The notes under the pieces were generated by a model, which saw only the letters and a program-made list of their open reading frames with translations, had not been told where the DNA came from and did no database searches. From a virus (taxonomy: Duplodnaviria; Caudoviricetes), in the IMG/VR virus record IMGVR_UViG_3300033417_000015, positions 1-46,214 of that record: 46,214 bases of DNA; one strand, written 5' to 3'. Positions 1-45,216 of this stretch are shown piece after piece; the stretch's first letter is position 1, and every line of letters starts with the position of its first letter. Both the position numbers and the translations under genes were made by a program.

Positions 1-174
1 ATCTGTTTTGACGTAAAGCACGGTGACGACATCCTGCGGCGCGCCTATGTCACGTCCAGCGGCGACTTGTTCTGCGACCGCTGTGGCAGCCGCCATGACG
101 CGGAAGAAGAAGAAGAATCCTATGCGATGGAGTACGACGGATTTGAGTACGACGAGGAGCCGACCGATGAGTAA
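1..174 (+). CDS. 3' part of a small Cys-containing protein (ICFDVKHG...FCDRCG...EEPTDE*), likely continuing the ORF at 45940
   Basis: Frame 1 is open from base 1 to TAA at 172-174 and ends in the array junction motif. Confidence 0.65.
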   Translation: MCFDVKHGDDILRRAYVTSSGDLFCDRCGSRHDAEEEEESYAMEYDGFEYDEEPTDE

Positions 175-484
175 CGAACAACTCAAATCGCAACAGCAGG
201 ATATACACCCGTTTTATTCGGGCAGTCAGTATGCCGATTGGACTATCTGCAATTGCGCGCGTTGCTCCAAAGGCGCGCACTTGCTGGGGCCAGATGCCTT
301 GCCGACTTGTGAAATTGAGCTTGCGCTAGGCGAGGCGTACATACTTGACGGCAAAGTTAATGCGGAGATTGCGAGACGGATGGGGTATGCCGCCGAGGGG
401 TGGGCGTATACGTGGCAGTGCCACGAGGTTAACTGGACGGATGAGTGGAAAGCGGAGTGCAACAGCCTTGACGTACTCCCATGA
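167..484 (+). CDS. Cys-rich hypothetical protein (MSNEQLKSQQ...), C-terminus altered by an IS605-type insertion
   Basis: ATG inside the junction motif with AGGAG SD. Removing 468-806 restores the ending ...ECNSRKGGDR* with an ATGA overlap into the next gene. Confidence 0.8.
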   Translation: MSNEQLKSQQQDIHPFYSGSQYADWTICNCARCSKGAHLLGPDALPTCEIELALGEAYILDGKVNAEIARRMGYAAEGWAYTWQCHEVNWTDEWKAECNSLDVLP

Positions 485-696
485 CTAAAGTCAAGGGATT
501 CTGGGGTCAAACATGGGATGCCCCTACAAAGGGTCTTACTCTCACTAGCCCAAGAGGAGACGCCCCTCCTCATACAGCAATTTGTTGCACTTTGGCGTTA
601 CAGATTTTACGTGTGGGACTTCCCCACACAACCGCATAATCTATAGTTTTAAGGTGCTACACAGTGGAGGATATTACCCCGTCTCACTGGGTTGTA
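468..696 (-). ncRNA. Putative TnpB omega-RNA (reRNA)-like scaffold; the guide would be the flanking 467-~448
   Basis: Extended -10 TGcTATACT at 711-703 points toward the right end. The 3' part GGGGCGTCTCCTCTTGGG...GTAAGACCC...GGGGCA...TTGACCCCAGAATCCC resembles IS605 tnpB right-end RNA. Internal long hairpin at ~599-645. 5' end is estimated. Confidence 0.6.
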
Positions 697-806
697 TCTA
701 CCAGTATAGCATATTTTTAGGTTGTTTATTGTGTCAGATGGCTGACAGATGCAGCGGGCATTCATCCAACGGTTAAAACACGTTGGCTTTCTGCCCGAAA
801 GGACTC
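468..806 (-). mobile_element. Non-autonomous IS200/IS605-family element (no tnpA or tnpB)
   Basis: On the minus strand it is inserted 3' of TTAC. Left end has AAAG at the foot of hairpin CCAACG...CGTTGG. Right end is GAAT-CCCTTGACTTTAGTCATGGGA-GTACG-TCAA. No target duplication. Precise excision restores gene coupling. Confidence 0.88.
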
Positions 807-822
807 GTAAAGGAGGCGACCG

Positions 823-1032
823 ATGAGTGACAATAGTGTTGATGTTGCGCGTCTAACAGATGCCGTCAATTGCCTAATCGAAGCCAAATGGCGCATTGAC
901 GAAGCGGTAACAAATATCGCAGACGCTCGCCTTTCTGATGCCGTCAATAGCCTGTTTATGGATACCAAGCTGACGATTGAGATGCTAGAGGAACGCATTC
1001 GGAAGTTGAAAAGGGAGCCGACCGATGAGTGA
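823..1032 (+). CDS. Small helical hypothetical protein (array cassette)
   Basis: Starts MSDN in the junction and ends REPTDE* in the next junction. Confidence 0.85.
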   Translation: MSDNSVDVARLTDAVNCLIEAKWRIDEAVTNIADARLSDAVNSLFMDTKLTIEMLEERIRKLKREPTDE

Positions 1033-1252
1033 CAATAAATTCAGCTTGATATGTAACGATGGCGAAAATCTCGAGATCAAAAAATTGAAACTCGCTGCTG
1101 TCAAAACAACGACGGAGCGCGGCGTGATCGTGGAGATACACTACGCCCTGGAGCTGGACGATGAAACTACCGCGCCGCCCGCGAGTGAGACACACCAGGC
1201 ACAGGAGCCGACAGATGAGTTACAACATGAACAAAATGGTGGAAGTGGTTGA
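1025..1252 (+). CDS. Small hypothetical protein (array cassette)
   Basis: Starts MSDN. Reads through QEPTDE because the junction TGA is TTA at this copy. Confidence 0.8.
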   Translation: MSDNKFSLICNDGENLEIKKLKLAAVKTTTERGVIVEIHYALELDDETTAPPASETHQAQEPTDELQHEQNGGSG

Positions 1253-1553
1253 CGATTGGGCAAAGCGCCATCGCATAAAGCGCGAAGCAGCCGATGAAGT
1301 AGGCATTGCGATAGAGAGAGTGTGCAACTACTACGAAGTCCGTCTGCGCGTCGCGCAAGCCGACCGCGACGACTTGACCGCCAAGCTGGATGCTGCACAG
1401 GCACGCATTGCGGAGCTAGAGGCGCAGCTCGCCACTGCAAGCGCGAGAGCCGAGGAACGTGAAGCGGCTCTAAGGAGAGAACTGCGAACTTGGTCTAGGT
1501 TCGCAAACGTAGCGGACGATCTATTTGGCGCAAAGGAGCCGAGCGATGAGTGA
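1215..1553 (+). CDS. Coiled-coil hypothetical protein (ARIAELEA motif; array cassette)
   Basis: ATG in the junction at 1215; ends KEPSDE*. Confidence 0.85.
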   Translation: MSYNMNKMVEVVDDWAKRHRIKREAADEVGIAIERVCNYYEVRLRVAQADRDDLTAKLDAAQARIAELEAQLATASARAEEREAALRRELRTWSRFANVADDLFGAKEPSDE

Positions 1554-1770
1554 CAACGTAATCCGAGAGGGCGACCGCGTGAGTTGGCGATCTAGGCGCG
1601 TCAATCGCCAGGGCAGTACGCGACGAACTGGTATTGTACTCAAGATTTATGCGTTCAAACCAGGATCTGAATATGCCTATCTCCGTCCTGACAAGGGTTA
1701 TGGCCGCCTTCAGCACATCTCGTTGCGCCGACTAAACAAAATAGATACACAGGAGCCGACCGATGAGTGA
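1546..1770 (+). CDS. Small basic protein, possible SH3/KOW-like barrel (array cassette)
   Basis: MSDNVIREGDRVSW...TGIVLKI pattern; ends QEPTDE*. Confidence 0.8.
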   Translation: MSDNVIREGDRVSWRSRRVNRQGSTRRTGIVLKIYAFKPGSEYAYLRPDKGYGRLQHISLRRLNKIDTQEPTDE

Positions 1771-2059
1771 CGAACAGCCCGTGTGGGCACACGCGCGCGT
1801 CACAGACGGATGGTATATCGTTTGTCATCCTATGGAGGATGATACATTGCAGCGTGTCGAGGATGGACGCATGGACGATGGCGGCGGCGATTTTGCGTTG
1901 ACGCTGCTCCAACACGGCTATACATTCCGCCCCGTTGAAATTATCCCCGTTGAGGAACGCGAACGGTGGCGAGAAATGAACGCCGCGCTCGCCGCGCGCA
2001 TTGCCGAGCTAGAAGCCGCGCTGGACGCGGCGCGCGAGACGCAGCCGCCTGAAAATTGA
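1763..2059 (+). CDS. Hypothetical protein with C-terminal ARIAELEA coiled coil (last array cassette)
   Basis: Starts MSDEQ in the junction. Confidence 0.85.
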   Translation: MSDEQPVWAHARVTDGWYIVCHPMEDDTLQRVEDGRMDDGGGDFALTLLQHGYTFRPVEIIPVEERERWREMNAALAARIAELEAALDAARETQPPEN

Positions 2060-2075
2060 CGCGTTTTGACGCGTT
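2056..2075. repeat. Perfect tandem 10-mer TTGACGCGTT x2 just upstream of a promoter
   Basis: Direct reading; ends 18 nt before the -35 box. Confidence 0.7.
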
Positions 2076-2093
2076 TATTGGCGATATTGGGGG

Positions 2094-2122
2094 TTGACTT
2101 GTTTGCTTCTTTATGGTACGAT
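2094..2122 (+). promoter_or_regulatory. Strong sigma70-type early promoter
   Basis: TTGACT (2094-2099), 17-nt spacer, TACGAT (2117-2122) with extended TG. Confidence 0.8.
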
Positions 2123-2180
2123 AGAACCAAGAGAGCGACACATACGAGAGGTCGCAGAGATTAGCCAAAAGGAAACGAAA

Positions 2181-2555
2181 ATGACAATCACAGTGACCTG
2201 CCAATACACCGAAATCGAATTTGAAGCCGCCAGCAAGCGCAGCAAGAATCACCCGCTGGTTGCCGCTTTCCTTGACGAAGCCGCCAAAGATCGCTTCCAT
2301 AGTGGTGCGTACAACAAAGCGAAGGAACTGTTGACCGAGGCCAAAGGCCAGAGCAGCGACATTGACGAGATTATGACAGCCGTTCGTAACGCCCACGCCG
2401 CCTGGTGCGACGGTGAAGCCAAGCCGAAGGTGCGTATTGTCCGCCAGTGGAAGAACAATCGCCGCGACGGTTATGACGCCGACCGCGAAATCAATGACCT
2501 CGACGACTACTTCACGCAGCCGATGCGTAGCACAATCGGCGACACCGAACTTTAA
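2181..2555 (+). CDS. Hypothetical early protein
   Basis: AAGGA SD before ATG 2181, downstream of the promoter. Confidence 0.8.
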   Translation: MTITVTCQYTEIEFEAASKRSKNHPLVAAFLDEAAKDRFHSGAYNKAKELLTEAKGQSSDIDEIMTAVRNAHAAWCDGEAKPKVRIVRQWKNNRRDGYDADREINDLDDYFTQPMRSTIGDTEL

Positions 2556-2596
2556 CCCACACCGACCTGGCTATGTCGATAAACTAGCTACCGCAA
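2553..2596 (+). ncRNA. Intergenic H-type pseudoknot motif, copy 1
   Basis: P1 CGAC(2563)/GTCG(2575); P2 TGGCTA(2568)/TAGCTA(2585). Covaries with copy 2. Confidence 0.7.
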
Positions 2597-2626
2597 CCTA
2601 ACCAACCGCCACAGGAGACACACACC

Positions 2627-2929
2627 ATGGCCAGCAAGACAACCACCACGAGACTGCTTAATCTCACCGCCGGAAGTCGCACGAATCCTGTCCACGCCCA
2701 GGTTGAATTTTCCGGCACACTGACTGCTGAACTGGCCATCGCCGTCGCCAAGCGAGCGTTTGGTCATGCCGACGGCGTTACGGTACTTGACCCCGACACT
2801 GCCACGGCCTATCGTATCACTCGTGGCAAGGCTAGAAACATCACCGACCCAGAAGCCGCGGCCAATGCGATCATCGAGCAAGGCTGGCGTAACGAGCAGG
2901 CCACACAACACCGCAACGAATTTGAATAA
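2627..2929 (+). CDS. Hypothetical early protein
   Basis: AGGAG SD; 100-aa ORF. Confidence 0.8.
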   Translation: MASKTTTTRLLNLTAGSRTNPVHAQVEFSGTLTAELAIAVAKRAFGHADGVTVLDPDTATAYRITRGKARNITDPEAAANAIIEQGWRNEQATQHRNEFE

Positions 2930-2971
2930 CCCACCCCGACCCGGCCACGTCGCTTAAACTGGCCGCCGCAA
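2927..2971 (+). ncRNA. Intergenic H-type pseudoknot motif, copy 2
   Basis: P1 CGAC(2937)/GTCG(2949); P2 CGGCCA(2942)/TGGCCG(2960). Confidence 0.7.
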
Positions 2972-3004
2972 TCAAGCAACATTTAGCAGGAGACATAAAC
3001 CATC

Positions 3005-26588: not shown

Positions 26589-27980
26589 TTAGGCCGCCTC
26601 TAGCAGGGTGGGCTGCTGGCCGGTTGCGTCTGCGTAGCGTTGGAGCATGATCGCGATATAGTCCTCGCTCATCTCAATTGCTCTGACCTTGCGCCCCGTC
26701 TGTTCGCCGCCCAGCACAGCCCAGCCAGCCCCCGCGAAGGGGTCAAGGACGATGGCCCCAGGCTCGGTGAATTGCTCATACACCCAAGCCGCCAATGCTG
26801 CGGGCTTTTGCGTCGGATGCCATCGCCGTTCGCGTTCACTGTCGCGCAGCATCCCATTCCAGCGATGGCGGAATAACTTAGCGGCTTTGTCCTGATTCGT
26901 CCACGCCAGTTCGCAATCGGCAAAGTTGCCCGTCGTTTCCTTATCCCAAACGAGCCAGCAGGAAGATGGCCCCAAGCCCTCAACGTAGTAGTTTGCGCCC
27001 CACCAGACCTGCACCGCTTTCGGGTACATCTCCAAATAGAAAGAGGATGCCTTGAGCGCGGTATCGGTTGTATCGTCCCCGATAATGGGCGCATACTTGC
27101 CCACGTCTACTAGGTTCGCGGCTCCGACGGAGCCGCGAACATCCTTGCTCCCAAACGGCTTGGCACCGTTGGCGGTGCCAAGCCGTTTGTCTTTCTTCCA
27201 AGTTTGAATAGGATAAAGGCCAGGACTGGCCTTTATCGCCTCCCCTCCGCCAACATGCCCACGAACTTTTTTCACGCCCCCAAAAGGGATGATGCCGTTA
27301 GGCCCTTCTCCGCCACCAACGGATACGTTGGTGGCGACGATGCTCACGCCGTAAGGCGGATCGGCGATGATCAGGTCAGGACGTTCTTCGCCCAGCAGCC
27401 GCGCGATAATCAGCGGGTCAGTACAATCGCCACAGATGATTTTATGCTCCCCAAGCTGCCACAGATCGCCGCCATTGACATTCCATTGCTCGCGAAGGAC
27501 TTGCCCCCTGTCCACCTGCGGCTCCGCGTCCACGTCGGTCTTGACAGGCTCAGGCACATGCTCGGCTGCCAGCATCGCCAGCAAATCCCTCACGCCGTCA
27601 TCTTCCACCGGCGTCATCTCCACGCGGCCCAGCAACTCCGCCAACGCCGCGCCGTCAAGCTCGGCGAGGGATGTGGTGAAATCCAGCAAGGCCAAAATGA
27701 GATCCGCCTCGCTGTCTGAAACGTCCAGGATCGTCACCGGCCATTCGCCGCCAGCCTCCTGCCGTAAATGACCGTCGATCAGCGTCAATGCCCCGCCCGC
27801 GCGTTCACTGGCATACGCAATCAGCGGGGCGACGATGCCCACCTCAGAAAGTAGCCCACGGACGGCTTGGGCTTGCGGCTCTGGATGCCGCCGAAAGTTG
27901 CTCGCGTTTTGGGCAAGCTCGGACGCCGTGACGATGCGCGTCTCTTTTATGCGATTTCTCCAAGCCACCTGGTCGCTCAT
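26589..27980 (-). CDS. ParB-like domain fused to a DNA amino-methyltransferase
   Basis: N-terminal NFRRHP...LIDGHLR; GDLWQLGEHKIICGDC, DPPY, HPTQKP, LDPFAGAG. Confidence 0.92.
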   Translation of the reverse strand: MSDQVAWRNRIKETRIVTASELAQNASNFRRHPEPQAQAVRGLLSEVGIVAPLIAYASERAGGALTLIDGHLRQEAGGEWPVTILDVSDSEADLILALLDFTTSLAELDGAALAELLGRVEMTPVEDDGVRDLLAMLAAEHVPEPVKTDVDAEPQVDRGQVLREQWNVNGGDLWQLGEHKIICGDCTDPLIIARLLGEERPDLIIADPPYGVSIVATNVSVGGGEGPNGIIPFGGVKKVRGHVGGGEAIKASPGLYPIQTWKKDKRLGTANGAKPFGSKDVRGSVGAANLVDVGKYAPIIGDDTTDTALKASSFYLEMYPKAVQVWWGANYYVEGLGPSSCWLVWDKETTGNFADCELAWTNQDKAAKLFRHRWNGMLRDSERERRWHPTQKPAALAAWVYEQFTEPGAIVLDPFAGAGWAVLGGEQTGRKVRAIEMSEDYIAIMLQRYADATGQQPTLLEAA

Positions 27981-32423: not shown

Positions 32424-33215
32424 TCACGCTTCTTGGCGCGCCTTTGGCCCTGGCCTGGGCGCAAATTCCAGATGCGCGTACGCGGCCAAGCCCTGCCACG
32501 TCAGATCGTGTCGTTTCGTTAGCGCGCCAGATTTGGGCAGGTGCGCGGGCTTGTCTGCGTCCCAGGTTGTCACGCTGGGCATCACGCCATCCACGGCCAT
32601 CAACTGTAGTTCGCCCAGGCACTCGCGTAGCGCCGCGGCCTTTTCTTCCGGGTCGAGGCGGGTGGCGCTGCGGTCGGCGCGGGTGGTCACAAGCTCAACT
32701 TCGTCGCCATCCTTGTCTTGGTCTACCTCGGCCAACGTGCGCGGCTGGATACGGCGCGGGACAAGCGGCGCGGGTGGGCTGGTTAATTTTTCGTCGCTTT
32801 TAGGAGGGGGATTTGTGCGCGGCTCTTCATCCGGCGCGCCCGCGATGGGATGCTCGGCAAGATCGGCAACGTCCCGCCATGGCGTCTGCTCGCTGCCGTC
32901 GTCGCGGACGTGGAAGCCGTTGCGCTTGTCCTCTGCCTCGTCGCGCGCAGGTGCCATCTCGCGCTTGGCCGCCTCATGGCCGAGTGCGTAGCCCTGCTTC
33001 GACAGCTTCAAGGCCATCTCGTGCGTGATAGTCACCTCGCTGATGCGTTGCATGGCCCACGCTTCCCCCCTCTCTTCGTGCCAGCGTTTGATCACGTCCG
33101 CCGCCACGCGCACGATGCCCAGCGGTAAAGTCGGCATGAGGTTGTTGTCAAACTCAGCTAACCGCGCATTGATGGCATTGGTGATTTCGCTTAGCTGGTC
33201 ATTCGTCAGTGACAT
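32424..33215 (-). CDS. Hypothetical protein with a C-terminal putative DNA-binding helical domain
   Basis: 263-aa ORF coupled to the upstream HNH gene; MPSVTTWD...LP....L......TW motif. Confidence 0.75.
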   Translation of the reverse strand: MSLTNDQLSEITNAINARLAEFDNNLMPTLPLGIVRVAADVIKRWHEERGEAWAMQRISEVTITHEMALKLSKQGYALGHEAAKREMAPARDEAEDKRNGFHVRDDGSEQTPWRDVADLAEHPIAGAPDEEPRTNPPPKSDEKLTSPPAPLVPRRIQPRTLAEVDQDKDGDEVELVTTRADRSATRLDPEEKAAALRECLGELQLMAVDGVMPSVTTWDADKPAHLPKSGALTKRHDLTWQGLAAYAHLEFAPRPGPKARQEA

Positions 33216-33891
33216 GACCCCAAACCTTTCTGTTGATAATCATACCAACAAGACTGACGGACACCCCGAAACGCTTAGCAATTCTCGTCCGATCTCCTCG
33301 GCGAAATACCTGGCTTCTAATAAATCGCACCTGCTCTTCGGTCAGCTTGGCTCGCGGGTGAAATTCTCCTTTTTGCCCATGCCAAGTTCGCCGTGACCGC
33401 TCTACTACATCATCCATATTGTCTTGGGCCGTACCCGCATACAGGTGGTTGGGGTTGCAGCACGGCGGATTGTCGCATTTATGTAGCACCCAAAGGCCAT
33501 CTGGGATTTCGCCGAAGTGGATAATGTACGATAGGCGATGGGCGAATAGTTGCGTCTTGCCATCCTCCGAATGACTCAGAACCCCATACCCTCCATCGTT
33601 GATTCTTCCCCGCCATAGCCAGCAACTGCCTGAATCGCCAGGCTCAAGAAATTGCCAAAACTTTTCGGACGCTGAGCGCTTTGGCCCACGAGTATGGGTC
33701 GGAAGAAAGCGAACTGGCTCGCCAGCAGAATGACCATATTTCATGTTGGTTAGCTTCGCGATAGGCGCATCTGCACCACACCCACATTGACATTCACCAT
33801 AAGGTGCGATCAATCCGTGAGATGCTACCCACGGTGCATAGTCGTCTATATTTTCGGGAAAGAAGGACGTTGGGGTATGATCGAATTGCAT
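33199..33891 (-). CDS. HNH homing endonuclease (paralog A)
   Basis: CQCGCG; CWLWRG...GYG...AHRLSY...VLHKCDNPPCCNPNHL...N; C-terminal HTH. Start reassigned to ATG 33891 after GAAAGG SD. Confidence 0.92.
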   Translation of the reverse strand: MQFDHTPTSFFPENIDDYAPWVASHGLIAPYGECQCGCGADAPIAKLTNMKYGHSAGEPVRFLPTHTRGPKRSASEKFWQFLEPGDSGSCWLWRGRINDGGYGVLSHSEDGKTQLFAHRLSYIIHFGEIPDGLWVLHKCDNPPCCNPNHLYAGTAQDNMDDVVERSRRTWHGQKGEFHPRAKLTEEQVRFIRSQVFRRGDRTRIAKRFGVSVSLVGMIINRKVWGHVTDE

Positions 33892-33997
33892 CAGAATCAC
33901 CTTTCTGGTGTCAGGCCGCAGGGTGTTCAAAGCACCGCTGCGGCTACTTATTCGTAGGGCTTCATTATACCAAAATTCGCTCAAAGTATCCCCTCCC

Positions 33998-34552
33998 CTA
34001 AACACGTTCGCTTGGCTCAATAAAATCCATATCCCACAAGCGGAACAAATCCGCCTCGCTCTCCAAATCAATGGCCCTGCCGCTGTTCCAAACGCGGCCG
34101 CCCTGCACGCGTAGGTGTTCCGGCCTGTAACCCCCCTGGCTTTTGGCAGTGACCATCCGTCGCGAGAAGTCGCTGGAGCCTGTGCGGAGCATGTACACAA
34201 CAGACCAACACGCAGGCAAGGGCAGGAACAAATCAACCTTGATGCGCGTGCCTGGTTGCCACTCAAAGCTAAATGCCTTGTATTTTGGGCCGTTCTTGCT
34301 CAGCGTGACGGGCCATTGCGCCAGCAGATCATCAACTTCGCTGGTATTCATCGGATCGCCAATCAAATTGGTATGTAGCTTCGGGGTGGCAACGATCTCA
34401 ATGTCTCCCACCATCGGCCTGTTACGGCGTAAACTTCCAGCGATTTCGATGCGCCAACACGCTGGGCGCAAAGCCGCAACGATATGATCGGCAACTCGTA
34501 GCATTTGGGCGTGCGGATGCTTTTTGGTCTCACTCACGGTACATGCTTCCAT
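33998..34552 (-). CDS. Minimal family X DNA polymerase (palm and thumb only)
   Basis: IEIAGSLRR...VGDIEIV, KVDLF, RTGS, ESEADLF...FIEPSER. No 8-kDa, fingers or PHP domains. Confidence 0.88.
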   Translation of the reverse strand: MEACTVSETKKHPHAQMLRVADHIVAALRPACWRIEIAGSLRRNRPMVGDIEIVATPKLHTNLIGDPMNTSEVDDLLAQWPVTLSKNGPKYKAFSFEWQPGTRIKVDLFLPLPACWSVVYMLRTGSSDFSRRMVTAKSQGGYRPEHLRVQGGRVWNSGRAIDLESEADLFRLWDMDFIEPSERV

Positions 34553-35208
34553 GTCTTCCGGCTAACAGCGTCCCTTATCGTTGCCTCAGAGACCCCGTGC
34601 ATAACGCCCAGTTCCACGTAGGTGATCTTGCTGTTCGACGCTCTCATTGCTCGGATTTCAGTCACACCCGAAGCGTCGAGTTTGGCCCAGTGATTTTTCT
34701 CCCCGCGTGCGTTTCGTCCCTTCGCAACACTATCCAAGCTATTATCTAGCTGTGTTCCCGGGAAGATGTGTGCGGCATTGCAGCACGCACGCACATCACA
34801 CTTATGACATGCCAATAAATCAGAAGCAATCGGCCCGTTGGTGATTTCGTAAGCCATTCGATGGGCGGCATAGGTCTTTCGTTTCCACATAAACGCTCCG
34901 TATCCATTCGCGCCTATGGCGCCCTGCCATAACCAGCACTCGTCTGCGTCTCCTGGCGTCAAATGAGACCAAAAAGCGTCCGCAGTGGTGGGAGCTGTGC
35001 GAGTTTTTCCCCAATGACCATGCGCGTAGCGTTTTGGATGATACCGCAGATAACCATACGCCGTGTGCGATTGCCTTGCTGTGGGCGCAATCAAACCGCA
35101 CCCGCATTGACATTCACCATATGGCGCGGTCAAGCCGTGGGTAGCTACCCACAGCGCATAATCTTCTAGGTTTTTTGGAAAATAGGGAGCTAGAGTATGA
35201 TTTGACAT
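34534..35208 (-). CDS. HNH homing endonuclease (paralog B)
   Basis: Collinear with paralog A (DYAxWVAxHGLxAPYGECQCGCG); CHKCDVRACCNAAH. Start at ATG 35208. Confidence 0.92.
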   Translation of the reverse strand: MSNHTLAPYFPKNLEDYALWVATHGLTAPYGECQCGCGLIAPTARQSHTAYGYLRYHPKRYAHGHWGKTRTAPTTADAFWSHLTPGDADECWLWQGAIGANGYGAFMWKRKTYAAHRMAYEITNGPIASDLLACHKCDVRACCNAAHIFPGTQLDNSLDSVAKGRNARGEKNHWAKLDASGVTEIRAMRASNSKITYVELGVMHGVSEATIRDAVSRKTWKHVP

Positions 35209-35375
35209 GGTATCTACGCCTCGAACGTAGGTACTGAAAGGGTAGCGGTGCTGCTTCAACAGCCCGCTACTTTTCGCGTGGTTTACTCCTGTATTATACC
35301 ACCACTCGACCATTTGTTCTAGTGGCACACCGTCGGGCGGGTATGTCGTGGTCATCTCAAATGTCAACGTGTTGT

Positions 35376-35558
35376 TCATCTCGGCTCCTTCCACGGCACG
35401 CGGTACTTGAATCTCGCGGTCGCGTGGCACATCGTACAACTGCTGTCGCCACACGTGCAGAATACGTGGTTGCGATTTTCACGCATGATGCACCGGCGAC
35501 CGCAGGGCGTGTTGCCTTTGTGCCCCGCGCGGCGTGGGGTGGGCGGGGTGGTGGTCAT
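35376..35558 (-). CDS. Small Cys-rich hypothetical protein
   Basis: ATGA-coupled; CTCGDSSCTMCH; ends KEPR* in a partial junction motif. Confidence 0.55.
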   Translation of the reverse strand: MTTTPPTPRRAGHKGNTPCGRRCIMRENRNHVFCTCGDSSCTMCHATARFKYRVPWKEPR

Positions 35559-35794
35559 GGGCGCAATTCCTCCCTGGCATACTTCAATTCATCAATCGAT
35601 TGCTCCTCTAGCAAGCGATGGGCGTCGAGTCCCAACACCCTTTCCAATCTCACCGCGACGAACGCCGAAACGCTACGCCTTGAGCGCAAGATGTCCGACA
35701 CATACTGTGCTGAGATGCCAAGCCGCGTTGCCAATTCGACCTGCGTCATGTTATGCCGTATGGCTTCGAGGCGGATGCGTTGTGCGATGGTCAT
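35555..35794 (-). CDS. XRE-family HTH regulator
   Basis: MTQVELATRLGISAQYVSDILRSRR. Confidence 0.9.
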   Translation of the reverse strand: MTIAQRIRLEAIRHNMTQVELATRLGISAQYVSDILRSRRSVSAFVAVRLERVLGLDAHRLLEEQSIDELKYAREELRP

Positions 35795-36477
35795 GGGTGG
35801 GTTTCCAGTCTGAACAGAATGACCGACTCATAAGGCATACGCGCCTCACTGTTTGCACCAAAGCGGTGCGAAGGCGTCTTAATTTTGACGTGTTCCATCA
35901 GCCGAAAGCCAAGAGACTCTAGGTATTTGATATGCCAGTCCGTAACAGCCACCACTTTGCCATCGCGAATATGGTCTTTGATGTTCAGCACAAACCATCC
36001 GGATCCGCATAACACTCGCCGCGCCTCTGCCCATGCACGCTCGTGGAAGTCTCGGTAGCGATTTCCCCATTGCATCCGGCCGGCATTTTGAATATGTAGG
36101 TCACGCCCCAGAAAGTCACGATAGGACTTTTGGATCCGGTCCGGATTGGCGGTTACGAAATGGTCTGCCATCCTGTTGCCGTAAGCGGGTGACGTGCAGA
36201 TGGCATCAAAATAGCCATCCCCCCACGGCAAGGCCAGCGCGTTGCCTAGTGTGGTGCGCGGGTTGATAGCGCACCACTCTGGCTCGATCTCCGTCGCCTG
36301 CATCTCCACATCGCCCAGCCAATGCTCAAGCAAAAAGACTTTGCCTGTCCCCCCAAACGGGTCAAGGATGCGCTGCCTGCCTTGTAACATTTTCGCCATT
36401 GTTAGCAACAAAGCATCGGTGTACCTGGCAGGGTGACTCGGCGCGGGTGCGCCCAGCTCAAACAAGGTATCGTTCAT
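35791..36477 (-). CDS. DNA amino-methyltransferase (probably m4C-type, TSPAY)
   Basis: HPARY, ILDPFGGTG, DAICTSPAYGN; start at ATG 36477. Confidence 0.85.
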   Translation of the reverse strand: MNDTLFELGAPAPSHPARYTDALLLTMAKMLQGRQRILDPFGGTGKVFLLEHWLGDVEMQATEIEPEWCAINPRTTLGNALALPWGDGYFDAICTSPAYGNRMADHFVTANPDRIQKSYRDFLGRDLHIQNAGRMQWGNRYRDFHERAWAEARRVLCGSGWFVLNIKDHIRDGKVVAVTDWHIKYLESLGFRLMEHVKIKTPSHRFGANSEARMPYESVILFRLETHP

Positions 36478-36683
36478 GGCGTCCCCCTGCCTGCGCCGCG
36501 GTCTGCCGCGGTCTGCGTCAGCTTGAGCAACGCTTGGCGCGCGAGCATGGCGTCGGTGTAGGGCGTGCCGAACGGCTGCCACCTTTTGCCGGATTGGTTG
36601 ATGCGCCATTGGATCACGCGGTCGTTATTCGGGTCGGTGCGATAGCTGAATAGGGCGCGGCCGTGTGTGATTTCTAGGGTCAT
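36474..36683 (-). CDS. Hypothetical protein
   Basis: Coupled at both ends by ATGA overlaps. Confidence 0.7.
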   Translation of the reverse strand: MTLEITHGRALFSYRTDPNNDRVIQWRINQSGKRWQPFGTPYTDAMLARQALLKLTQTAADRGAGRGTP

Positions 36684-41129: not shown

Positions 41130-41173
41130 CATTTTAGTTGATGCTGTGCCAGATAAGAAAGGATGAAACCGCA

Positions 41174-42157
41174 GTGAGCCTATTTGTCCGAGCCAACAAT
41201 GATTTGACCGTAGCTGAGCAATACCAACTGTCGGTGCTAGAAGAGACGATTGAGCGCGGCCTTAAGACGTTTGTCGATGTCGGAACCGCGTTGATGGTTG
41301 TGCGTGACAGCAAACTCTACCGCCATGGACATTCCACCTTTGAGGACTATTGCCGCGTACGCTGGAATATGGGCAAAAGCCGCGTGTACCAGATGATTGA
41401 CGCGGCGATTGTGGTAGAAAATCTTCAAGAGTCCACCATGGTGGAACTTCCCACAAGCGAACGTCAAGCGCGCCCACTTGCGCAACTGGAACCAGAACAA
41501 CAGCGCGAGGCCTGGCGCAAAGTCGTTGACACCGCGCCAGGCGGCAGAGTCACCGCGGCGCATGTACAAAGCGTGGTTGACGAATATGAGGAACACGCCG
41601 AGGAACTCGCGGCAGATGAGGACGCCTACACTTGGACAGGAGACGATCCGCCCAAGCCGCATGTCACCCACAACAGCGGCAATAACGAGTGGCATACGCC
41701 ATCTGTTTATGTTGAAGCCGCGCGGCGCGTTCTGGGCGCAATCGACCTTGATCCTGCGTCCAATGACGCGGCAAATGAGACTGTCCAGGCGGAAACCTAC
41801 TACACGGCAGAGGATGACGGACTTCTTCAGGATTGGGCCGGAACGGTGTTTATGAACCCGCCCTACTCCGACAAGCTAGTTGGAAAGTTTGTGGACAAGC
41901 TGGTCTATCACTTTGTCGCAGGTGACGTGCAATCCGCTGTTGTCCTGGTCAACAATGCGACCGAGACGGCTTGGTTTCAAACACTGGCCGGTCACGCGCG
42001 CGCCATTTGCTTTCCGAGTCGCCGCATCCGCTTTGCGGGGCCAAACGAGAAAAGCCAGACAGGACTACAAGGGCAAGCCTTTGTTTACATTGGCAACGAT
42101 CCGCACGCATTTGTTGAAGAATTTGGAGGCTTTGGCTTCCTGGTGGAACCACTATGA
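41174..42157 (+). CDS. Phage Dam-like N6-adenine DNA methyltransferase with an N-terminal helical domain (start uncertain: 41138 or 41174)
   Basis: NEWHTP, IDLDPAS, DGLLQDW, VFMNPPYS, TETAWFQ, RIRF. Confidence 0.9.
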   Translation: MSLFVRANNDLTVAEQYQLSVLEETIERGLKTFVDVGTALMVVRDSKLYRHGHSTFEDYCRVRWNMGKSRVYQMIDAAIVVENLQESTMVELPTSERQARPLAQLEPEQQREAWRKVVDTAPGGRVTAAHVQSVVDEYEEHAEELAADEDAYTWTGDDPPKPHVTHNSGNNEWHTPSVYVEAARRVLGAIDLDPASNDAANETVQAETYYTAEDDGLLQDWAGTVFMNPPYSDKLVGKFVDKLVYHFVAGDVQSAVVLVNNATETAWFQTLAGHARAICFPSRRIRFAGPNEKSQTGLQGQAFVYIGNDPHAFVEEFGGFGFLVEPL

Positions 42158-43972: not shown

Positions 43973-44386
43973 ATGAGCGATACAAAATGGTGTCCAGGGT
44001 GCCGAGAATTTTTGCCCGTAACGGCATTTCAGAAATGTGCGCGTGATGGCTATCAAGCTCGTTGTCGGCAATGCCGACTCGATAACCAGCGCGCAAATCG
44101 AGAAGGGCACAAAGCGCGAGATAGGCGTTGGCGTGAGGCGAATCCCGAAAGAACCAGGGAGCGCACGCGGCGGTATCGTGAGGCACACAATGAAAAGCGA
44201 GTGGCTCACTGGAAGGTGGGAGAAGCTGTTCAGCGCGGCGAGCTGCAACCTATCCATGAGCGCGTGTGTGTTCGCTGTGGAGTTCAGGCCGAACACTACC
44301 ATCACGATTCATACGATAGGCCCTTAGACGTAACGCCTGTATGCAGTAGATGTCATAACTTGATTCACCTGGAGCTAAAATCATGA
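43973..44386 (+). CDS. HNH-type endonuclease with N-terminal zinc finger
   Basis: CPGC...CRQC; CVRC...HYHHDSYDRPLDVTPVCSRCH; AGGAGG SD. Confidence 0.85.
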   Translation: MSDTKWCPGCREFLPVTAFQKCARDGYQARCRQCRLDNQRANREGHKARDRRWREANPERTRERTRRYREAHNEKRVAHWKVGEAVQRGELQPIHERVCVRCGVQAEHYHHDSYDRPLDVTPVCSRCHNLIHLELKS

Positions 44387-45216
44387 CCAATACACTGATT
44401 GCCAAAATTGCCGCCGCCTCCATCGCGGTTGGCTCGCTTGCCACCGATAAAGTAAACGCCTCACAGAACTACAAGTACATCAGCGCCGATAAGATTCTGG
44501 AACGCGCCGGGGATGCCCTGGCGCAAGCGGGCGTGATGGTCATTCCGTCCATCACCTTTGAGGAAACCGTACAGGTCGATTACACCGACAATTATGGCAA
44601 GGCCAAAAGCCGCTTTGACGCGACAGTCCACTTTGCGATGGTGTTGGCAGATGGCGAGAGCCAGTTGGAAGTCCCCTGGCGCGGGCGCGGCAATGATTAC
44701 GCCGTTCCCGACAAGGCGCTTTACAAAGCCATCACGTCGGGTCACAAGTATTTTTTGATGAAGCTACTCAATATCGGCGTAGGGAATGAGGATGGGGAGC
44801 ATGATGAAGTCCAGGAGTCGCGCACAGCCGCCCCGCGCACACAATCTAGCACGCGCGCGCCGCAAAACGCCACAGCGAGACAGAAAACGGGGTCAGACGA
44901 CGCTCACGACGCGCTGTGGGAGCCGGAACACTACGACGCACCCGCCGATGCCGGCAGCAAAGACAAAGTTTTGAGCAAGACGCAGTTGCAACGCATCAAC
45001 GCGTTAGGCAGGAAGCTGCACCCGGAAGGCGAGTGGGACACTGAGCGCCCGCGTTACGTCGAATGGGTGACGAAGGGCGCGGTCAGCAGCTCCAAGCAGT
45101 TGCAACCCAGCGAAGCCGATACGCTGATTGCTGGGCTTGAGCGTAAATTAGCCAAGCTCGCCGCCAACGTCCAAACCACGCACGCGACCAACGGCAAAGC
45201 TCCGGTGGCAGCATGA
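44383..45216 (+). CDS. erf: ERF-family single-strand annealing recombinase
   Basis: NYKYISADKIL...GRGND...DKALYKAITSGHKYFLMKLLNI...EDGE. Confidence 0.88.
   Translation: MTNTLIAKIAAASIAVGSLATDKVNASQNYKYISADKILERAGDALAQAGVMVIPSITFEETVQVDYTDNYGKAKSRFDATVHFAMVLADGESQLEVPWRGRGNDYAVPDKALYKAITSGHKYFLMKLLNIGVGNEDGEHDEVQESRTAAPRTQSSTRAPQNATARQKTGSDDAHDALWEPEHYDAPADAGSKDKVLSKTQLQRINALGRKLHPEGEWDTERPRYVEWVTKGAVSSSKQLQPSEADTLIAGLERKLAKLAANVQTTHATNGKAPVAA

What the first reader, a model, noticed from the sequence alone, without database searches (positions are those of the whole stretch)
448..810. Protein-free IS605-type mini-element that appears to express a TnpB guide RNA against the element-free phage allele
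Seen: on the minus strand the 339-bp segment 806-468 follows TTAC and ends in TCAA. It has AAAG at the foot of the left hairpin and GAAT at the foot of the right hairpin. Deleting it gives AAC AGC CGT AAA GGA GGC GAC CGA TGA, which restores an ATGA overlap with the gene at 823 and so fixes the boundaries. It encodes no TnpA or TnpB but has an extended -10 (TGCTATACT, 711-703) about 230 nt from the right end, and a structured 3' region. Known: IS608 TnpA uses these same tetranucleotides (TTAC/AAAG, TCAA/GAAT). TnpB omega-RNAs derive from the right end and use flanking DNA as guide. Inference: this is a stand-alone omega-RNA with guide GGCTGTTGCACTCCGCTTTC. The empty allele reads TTTAC followed by that sequence, so a host TnpB supplied in trans could cut element-free sibling phages, giving RNA-only homing or phage-phage competition.
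Basis: partly seen in the sequence, partly recalled or inferred. Interest (0 to 1): 0.88.

Follow-up and report, generated by a model that had tools for sequence, protein, structure and literature searches.

The report
Gene-less guide-RNA transposon with conserved leader
A 339-base gene-less jumping element sits in a phage gene's last codons and carries the guide-RNA scaffold of the TnpB nuclease, a known kind of parasite that likely borrows host enzymes to keep its place, but it also carries a folded RNA leader shared with distant gene-less elements that we did not find described.

Summary
Window 806-468 (minus) is a protein-free IS200/IS605 mini-element (PATE) with TTAC/AAAG and TCAA/GAAT ends. 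A soil-run contig shows the same right end with another flank, breaking exactly at 468. Its last 111 nt score 84 bits against a model of 11 tnpB-linked ends built without it. Protein-free omega-RNA elements acting in trans are already in print, are common in viral contigs (25 of 77 loci), and this scan has noted them on other DNA. New here: the ~125 nt between promoter and scaffold is no detectable tnpB remnant but a structured leader. A model built only from two distant protein-free elements finds it at 54 bits; 35 of 35 cells pair, with 7 of 12 pairs changed on both sides; 0 of 26 tnpB-bearing loci match. Expression, a cognate host TnpB and the empty phage allele were not shown, so homing and phage competition remain inference; self-retention after excision is the simpler function. 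Verdict: new variant of a known kind.

The parts
807..810 (-). TTAC target tetranucleotide outside the left end (TnpA target; predicted TnpB TAM of the empty site)
   Evidence: Sequence; the same TTAC precedes the left end in L001, L006, L012, L013 and L026
761..806 (-). Left end: 16-nt spacer, AAAG (790-787), hairpin 786-766, GATGAA
   Evidence: DNA fold z -3.56; 92% identity over query 12-50 to the left end of a full tnpB element in G118
703..711 (-). Extended -10 promoter-like site TGCTATACT, likely the inherited tnpB promoter
   Evidence: 52 nt after the left-end GATGAA, against 44 nt for the -10 box ahead of tnpB in L026; TATACT invariant in 3 of 3 leader-bearing elements; activity untested
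583..700 (-). Conserved structured leader: hairpin P1 (about 696-658), boxA-like GCACCTTAAAAC (657-646), rod P2 with outer stem 645-638/606-599, inner stem 629-611 with GAAGT loop, basal stem closing at 591-583
   Evidence: 54 bits, E 1.2e-11 with model R2 built from L197 and L195 only; nhmmer E 1.3e-5; 35 of 35 cells paired; fold z -2.59 for 700-575 and -4.00 for 656-598; no tnpB homology found
468..578 (-). TnpB omega-RNA scaffold including the right end (hairpin 571-554 with GGGCGT loop, GTAAGACC 539-532, GAAT 501-498, hairpin 498-477, TCAA 471-468)
   Evidence: 84.3 bits with model R1 built from 11 tnpB-linked ends without this copy; family covariation 24 of 29 pairs changed on both sides
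448..467 (-). Predicted guide: phage DNA flanking the right end, antisense to the last codons of gene 164-484
   Evidence: Position by analogy with ISDra2 reRNA (PMC8612924); no second site with TTAC plus seed in the window
164..484 (+). Interrupted phage gene (106 aa, Cys-rich, no family); the insertion replaces only its last 6 residues
   Evidence: 4 relatives at 70-75% identity end 7-9 residues after EWKAE with K/R-rich tails like the reconstructed one
811..1032 (+). Downstream phage gene (823-1032) with its Shine-Dalgarno junction repeat left intact
   Evidence: Junction repeat D1 copy at 811-836; ORF list

Best explanation
This is a gene-less IS200/IS605 mini-transposon (PATE) that occurs at more than one site, was likely pasted into the phage after TTAC by a host TnpA, and is predicted to make a leader-plus-omega RNA that a host TnpB would use to cut the element-free version of the site so that recombination restores the element. 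Shown: ends, boundaries, absence of protein genes, scaffold homology, a second flank, and a conserved folded leader. Inferred: transcription from the 711-703 site through the right end into the flank (about 230 nt plus guide); 5' trimming and loading by a TnpB of the L071/L137 type; cleavage of TTAC plus guide; repair from an element-bearing copy, for which the phage's ERF-type annealing protein is a candidate. The main role is likely selfish retention after TnpA excision. Cutting of empty sibling phages would follow from the same chemistry and needs no benefit to the phage. The leader likely replaces the missing tnpB message as an expression or stability module (antitermination, protection or processing); which of these is untested.
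For: Ends match TnpA/TnpB elements. Second flank at exactly 468 in X5. Contigs of X3 (572-722, 1 difference) and X4 (597-747, 4 differences) carry the leader with no matching piece of the flanking phage genes laid. Scaffold scores 84.3 bits, near training members at 86.7-106.2, with 4 non-standard pairs of 32 in the printed alignment. The leader is kept with double-sided changes in three lineages that differ in left end (TTAC against CTAG type) and scaffold, which is not expected of neutral filler. The L197/L198 element occurs twice with different flanks in one 16-kb record. TnpB relatives with the closest scaffold are intact (L071, 83% over 105 nt; 381 aa). TnpB-driven retention and PATE omega-RNAs needing TnpB in trans are described in 10.1101/2023.03.14.532601 (passages).
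Against: No RNA evidence and no host genome. No empty allele was seen in 6 runs laid (low-depth contigs, none bridging the site). In the full predicted RNA, guide positions 4-12 pair with leader 591-583 at probability about 0.8, displacing the leader's own basal stem; a perfect 9-nt match arises for about 0.5% of window 20-mers. The guide is also predicted paired after trimming and for the X5 flank, so this is a weak objection. The leader comparison rests on three lineages, two of them 84% alike by mean column identity. TTAC is not shown to be the TAM of this TnpB family: a strict TTAC-type left end was found in only 2 of 33 distinct full viral loci and 4 of 22 tnpB-less ones.
Confidence: 0.6

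Rival explanations
1. The element is a real, mobile PATE, but this copy is a silent passenger: it landed in a tolerant spot, and here its RNA is not made, not loaded or is blocked by guide-leader pairing.
For: The insertion is nearly neutral. No TnpB or TnpA in the phage record. Predicted guide sequestration. The promoter position is inherited from tnpB elements, so it needs no selection here.
Against: Scaffold, promoter box and leader are all intact and near-identical to copies in other runs.
Confidence: 0.23
2. The leader RNA, not DNA cutting, is the point: these elements would make an abundant stable RNA that soaks up or regulates TnpB, or the leader has a separate RNA function that hitch-hikes on the element.
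For: The leader is conserved across different left ends and scaffolds; the L197/L198 scaffold is diverged (43.3 bits) while its leader is intact. No Rfam family matches.
Against: In 3 of 3 lineages the leader lies directly upstream of a recognisable scaffold and right end; it was not found alone in 58 other loci or 141 Bacillota genomes.
Confidence: 0.1
3. The phage has domesticated the element as an RNA-only weapon against element-free sibling phages, as the first reader proposed in its strongest form.
For: The guide would match only the empty allele. Pieces of element and phage occur together in runs X1 and X2. Non-restorative homing into co-infecting phages or plasmids is listed as a possibility in PMC13565253 (passages).
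Against: Both transposon ends are intact and the same element has another flank elsewhere, as expected of a mobile parasite. Such elements are common in viral contigs. No empty sibling was found.
Confidence: 0.07

Closest known systems
PATEs (palindrome-associated transposable elements): Haloquadratum, PMC3119063; Geobacillus, 10.1101/2023.03.14.532601
   Same: No protein gene, near-terminal hairpins, no terminal inverted repeats, no target duplication, IS605-type ends, an omega-RNA that would need TnpB in trans.
   Different: The middle is not fused ends or a detectable tnpB remnant but a conserved, covarying ~125-nt leader; found in a phage.
Stand-alone omega-RNAs of OMEGA systems (as summarised in PMC10691335)
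   Same: Mobilised guide-RNA locus without effector or transposase; guide taken from flanking DNA.
   Different: Trans activity was shown for those; here it is untested and no host genome with the cognate effector is known.
IS605/IS1341 elements of the ISNsp3 / Rhodothermus-plasmid type (L001, L006, L012, L013, L026, L071)
   Same: TTAC-AAAG left end, promoter position, GGGCAT-loop/GTAAGAC scaffold, GAAT-TCAA right end. The published ISTel2 scaffold shows the same motifs by eye (supplement of PMC12781874; not scored).
   Different: They carry tnpB (some also tnpA) and none of 26 tested matches the leader model.
boxA antitermination signals of rRNA operons (PMC13753749)
   Same: Order promoter, hairpin, then a GCTCTTTGAAA-like run in L197 and L195; the paper gives UGCUCUUUAACA (E. 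coli) and AUGAUCUUUGAAA (B. subtilis).
   Different: The copy here reads GCACCTTAAAAC, and its first bases are predicted to pair in a basal stem with a compensating change, so it may be structure and not a NusB site.

Membership tests
PATE | Palindromes close to both ends | tested here: met
   left hairpin z -3.56; right hairpin present but imperfect, z -1.41
PATE | No terminal inverted repeats and no target duplication | tested here: met
   ends GAGTC.../...GTCAA are not inverted; flanks TTAC and GGCT are not duplicated. The empty site is reconstructed, not observed.
PATE | Too short for, and lacking, a transposase or TnpB gene | tested here: met
   stops in all six frames, no TnpB profile hit; none in the record
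PATE | Mobile: same element at different sites | tested here: met
   one 151-nt contig (depth 2.2) of run X5 with another flank at 468; single-contig evidence
IS200/IS605, IS608-type ends | TTAC target with AAAG at the left hairpin foot; TCAA end with GAAT at the right hairpin foot, shared with TnpA-bearing elements | tested here: met
   L006 (annotated ISNsp3 tnpA), L001, L012, L013, L026. TTAC as IS608 target is in PMC8612924; AAAG/GAAT as IS608 guides is recalled.
IS200/IS605, IS608-type ends | Excision and insertion by TnpA | not testable with these tools
   No joint (empty allele) seen
Stand-alone TnpB omega-RNA | Scaffold homologous in sequence and structure to tnpB-linked right-end RNAs | tested here: met
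   84.3 bits, full model; covariation 0.633 against 0.248 shuffled
Stand-alone TnpB omega-RNA | Expressed RNA running through the right end into the flank | not testable with these tools
   No RNA holder listed
Stand-alone TnpB omega-RNA | Guides a compatible TnpB in trans; effector present in the same cell | not testable with these tools
   Host unknown; candidates L071 and L137
boxA antitermination site | Consensus-like run downstream of a 5' hairpin that binds NusB-S10 | tested here: inconclusive
   Position and partial match; predicted paired in a basal stem; binding untested
IStron / HEARO / other Rfam RNA | Match to a curated RNA family | tested here: not met
   only an unrelated 20-bit lncRNA hit in window 1-3000; nothing over L183 or L151
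TldR (domesticated dead TnpB with guide) | Adjacent TnpB-derived gene | tested here: not met

The most novel reading that the evidence does not exclude
Leader-bearing PATEs are a distinct lineage of RNA-only parasites of TnpB. They replaced the tnpB message with a dedicated folded leader (antitermination, stability or processing module), spread it across different transposon ends, and use borrowed TnpA and TnpB to home through phage populations.
Probability: 0.3. Interest if true: 0.72.

Novelty: new variant of a known kind. Interest (0 to 1): 0.46.

Why it matters
PMC10691335 calls the biological role of stand-alone omega-RNAs unknown. A leader that is conserved in protein-free elements and missing from the tnpB-bearing ones tested would be evidence that these RNAs are selected for expression and are not mere debris. 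It gives a direct test: delete the leader and measure RNA level, TnpB loading and retention. A natural module for expressing TnpB guides without the coding message could also be useful for compact editors. The PATE itself and the homing idea are already known.

Tried and rejected
Related phage loci or an empty allele: none in viral contigs; no joints in 6 runs. No RNA holder listed. Exact end or middle patterns: 0 hits in viral contigs; the genome scan gave one chance match in Paenibacillus; the metagenome scan gave only the window's own contig. No match in annotated phages; in plasmids only the Rhodothermus right end, short left-end or chance hits, and nothing for the L197 element. Idea that the middle is a decayed tnpB start or zinc finger: no profile support; rejected, though only 11 TnpBs were in the profile. 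More leaders: 0 of 401 Bacillota genomes by pattern, 0 of 141 by model; no other phylum could be sampled, so Chloroflexota were not searched. L143 looked similar by eye but did not score; L151 scored 15 bits, E 0.19, and is not counted. A second scaffold hit at 35885-35933 (E 0.47) lies inside a methylase gene and is taken as chance. Host: terminase and capsid searches gave no host name; 3 of the 120 listed relatives of the L071 TnpB carry a taxon name, all Chloroflexota, a weak hint. No tyrosine integrase found. One search used a mis-registered first helix and was redone. Papers: a search for boxA plus TnpB returned 3 papers, none on this topic by listing; searches showed no description of such a leader. 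The library lacks most subscription journals and bioRxiv supplements were closed, so the PATE alignments of the Geobacillus preprint were not seen.

Full report
The window is a 46-kb tailed-phage record (terminase, portal, capsid, ERF-type annealing protein), rated 73% complete and linear. The finding lies in a run of short plus-strand genes joined by a 26-nt junction repeat in 6 copies.

Observation. All stated features are present. The segment 806-468 on the minus strand is 339 nt, follows TTAC and ends in TCAA; AAAG and GAAT lie at the feet of the two hairpins; TGCTATACT is at 711-703. Removing it restores a stop that overlaps the ATG at 823. Four relatives of the interrupted gene (70-75% identity) end in short K/R-rich tails like the reconstructed RKGGDR and unlike the LDVLP now encoded; this is modest support. 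The left hairpin is well above chance (z -3.56), the right one is not on its own (z -1.41). The promoter scan gave 1 site against 1.1 expected.

Boundaries and mobility. Six public runs hold parts of the region, all as short, low-depth contigs. X1 and X2 hold pieces of the element and of the flanking phage genes; X3 and X4 hold 151-nt pieces of the element's middle with 1 and 4 differences and otherwise only a 34-nt match at 43-76 that runs on into other sequence (X3) or nothing (X4). X5 holds 468-603 with 2 differences and then 15 unrelated letters starting exactly at 468. That fixes the right end and shows the short form at a second site, on the strength of one contig. No contig bridges the site and no joint was seen, so the empty allele is unobserved.

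Family. A Rhodothermus plasmid element matched the last 100 nt at 73.5% and carries tnpB between a TTAC/AAAG left end and a GAAT/TCAA right end. Ten more tnpB loci were collected. Four of these 11 show a TTAC-AAAG left end, one of them with an annotated ISNsp3 tnpA. A model of their last 112 positions, built without the window copy, scores 578-468 at 84.3 bits; members and held-out relatives score 74-106. Across the 12 sequences 84.7% of cells pair and 24 of 29 pairs change on both sides, above all 500 shuffles. A full element in G118 has a left end 92% identical to this one with its -10 box at a similar distance, so the promoter is likely the inherited tnpB promoter. The closest tnpB-linked scaffolds are L071 (83%) and L137 (81%); the L071 protein is full length and shows the three RuvC acidic motifs by my reading.

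How common. A right-end pattern returned 121 viral loci, about 520 estimated in the collection. Of 77 with at least 500 nt upstream, 48 have a full tnpB, 4 a part and 25 none; counted as distinct ends, 33, 4 and 22. The 44 loci with less flank were left out of that count. Not all tnpB-less loci are complete elements: a strict TTAC-type left end was found in 4 of 22, and in 2 of 33 full ones, so the family uses several left ends and TTAC is not proven as its TAM. Protein-free copies are therefore ordinary in phages.

The leader. Homology to tnpB loci is confined to the last 105 nt; the middle gave no hit to tnpB DNA or protein profiles. It folds well (z -2.59; z -4.00 for 656-598). Two other protein-free elements, L070/L195 (412 nt) and L183/L197/L198 (423 nt, two copies with different flanks and 3 differences in one 16-kb record), showed a similar stretch by eye. 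As a test I built profiles from those two alone. The sequence profile finds 664-595 as the best window hit at E 1.3e-5; the structure model finds 713-585 at 54 bits, E 1.2e-11, as the only hit (calibration is rough). On the three-way alignment 35 of 35 cells pair and 7 of 12 pairs change on both sides; slid controls give 23-49% (the structure was derived from these sequences, and there are only three). The model finds nothing in 26 full tnpB loci among 58 loci searched, apart from a 15-bit hit in tnpB-less L151, and nothing in 141 Bacillota genomes. L197/L198 have a different left end (after CTAG) and a diverged scaffold (43.3 bits), and their records hold no TnpB (39% and 9% complete). The order is -10 box, hairpin P1, a boxA-like run, then a three-tier rod with a five-base loop.

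Mechanism. Shown in other systems: TnpA pastes single-stranded circles after a target motif, the RNA from the right end takes about 16 flanking bases as guide, and TnpB cuts the empty joint so that recombination restores the element (PMC8612924, passages; 10.1101/2023.03.14.532601, passages). TnpB can trim the 5' end of its RNA, to a 106-nt scaffold in one case (PMC10278001, passages and one supplement search). TnpBs with NTAC or TTTAC motifs exist (PMC12781874, passages, section 24 and one supplement search), but I did not show that they use this scaffold. Inferred here: the element makes about 230 nt of leader plus scaffold and runs into the flank; a host TnpB loads it and cuts TTAC plus guide wherever the element is missing. 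That keeps the element after excision and would also bias inheritance in a co-infection with an empty sibling. One caveat: guide positions 4-12 are exactly complementary to leader 591-583 and are predicted to displace its normal partner (about 0.5% by chance, noticed after the fact). Protein-free folding also pairs the guide after trimming and with the X5 flank, so this does not decide anything.

Comparison with what is known. PATEs were defined in Haloquadratum (PMC3119063, passages). The Geobacillus preprint states that PATEs often encode omega-RNAs that need TnpB in trans. PMC10691335 (passages) describes mobilised stand-alone omega-RNAs that work in trans and calls their role unknown. PMC13565253 (passages) lists homing into co-infecting phages or plasmids as a possible mode. 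This scan has 138 earlier notes on such elements, including phage cases and two that mention a conserved 5' domain; they are unchecked leads, and sequence look-ups with this element and with L197 returned nothing, so I cannot say whether their leader is the same. My eight paper searches showed no description of this leader, within the limits of the library.

Verdict. A real PATE with an intact TnpB guide scaffold. The conserved leader makes this a new variant worth a wider search and a simple bench test. Interest 0.46.

Noticed in passing
window 155-180, 811-836, 1013-1038, 1203-1228, 1534-1559, 1751-1776: A 26-nt repeat (Shine-Dalgarno, stop and start, encoding EPTDE-like tails) joins six successive short genes; it could serve as a recombination point for gene cassettes.
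   Followed up: partly
window 591-583 and 464-456 (minus): Nine bases of the leader are exactly complementary to guide positions 4-12 at this insertion site and compete with the leader's own basal stem.
   Followed up: yes
L197 about 1735-1710 (minus); L195 about 1333-1360: Both leaders begin with TTACGA, 14 more bases, then AAAG: the same spacing as a TTAC-type left end, without its hairpin. Possibly a vestigial nested left end.
   Followed up: no
L070 1276-1403: The L070 mini-element starts right after a palindrome made of two head-to-head right ends.
   Followed up: no
L079 1608-1735: A scaffold without tnpB (76 bits) lies 60 nt upstream of a cluster of 14 tRNA genes in a 251-kb phage record; the DNA before it looks like a tmRNA start by eye, but ARAGORN and Rfam do not call it.
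   Followed up: partly
L087, L093, L101: A 197-bp TTAC-type mini-element (left end plus scaffold, no leader) sits at the same site in three related phage records, a possible set for testing fixation.
   Followed up: no
L071 2750-3445 / G405: The tnpB with the closest scaffold has no visible left-end hairpin; a long inverted repeat follows its promoter. The 107-kb record holds 7 TnpB matches, 4 over the cut-off.
   Followed up: no
run X6 contig, matching window 757-803: A related left end with different interior is flanked by a REP-like palindrome (REP label recalled).
   Followed up: no
window 26589-27980, 33199-34266, 34534-35454, 35791-36609, 41138-42157, 44383-45216: The phage carries three DNA methyltransferase genes, two HNH endonuclease genes and an ERF-family annealing protein.
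   Followed up: no
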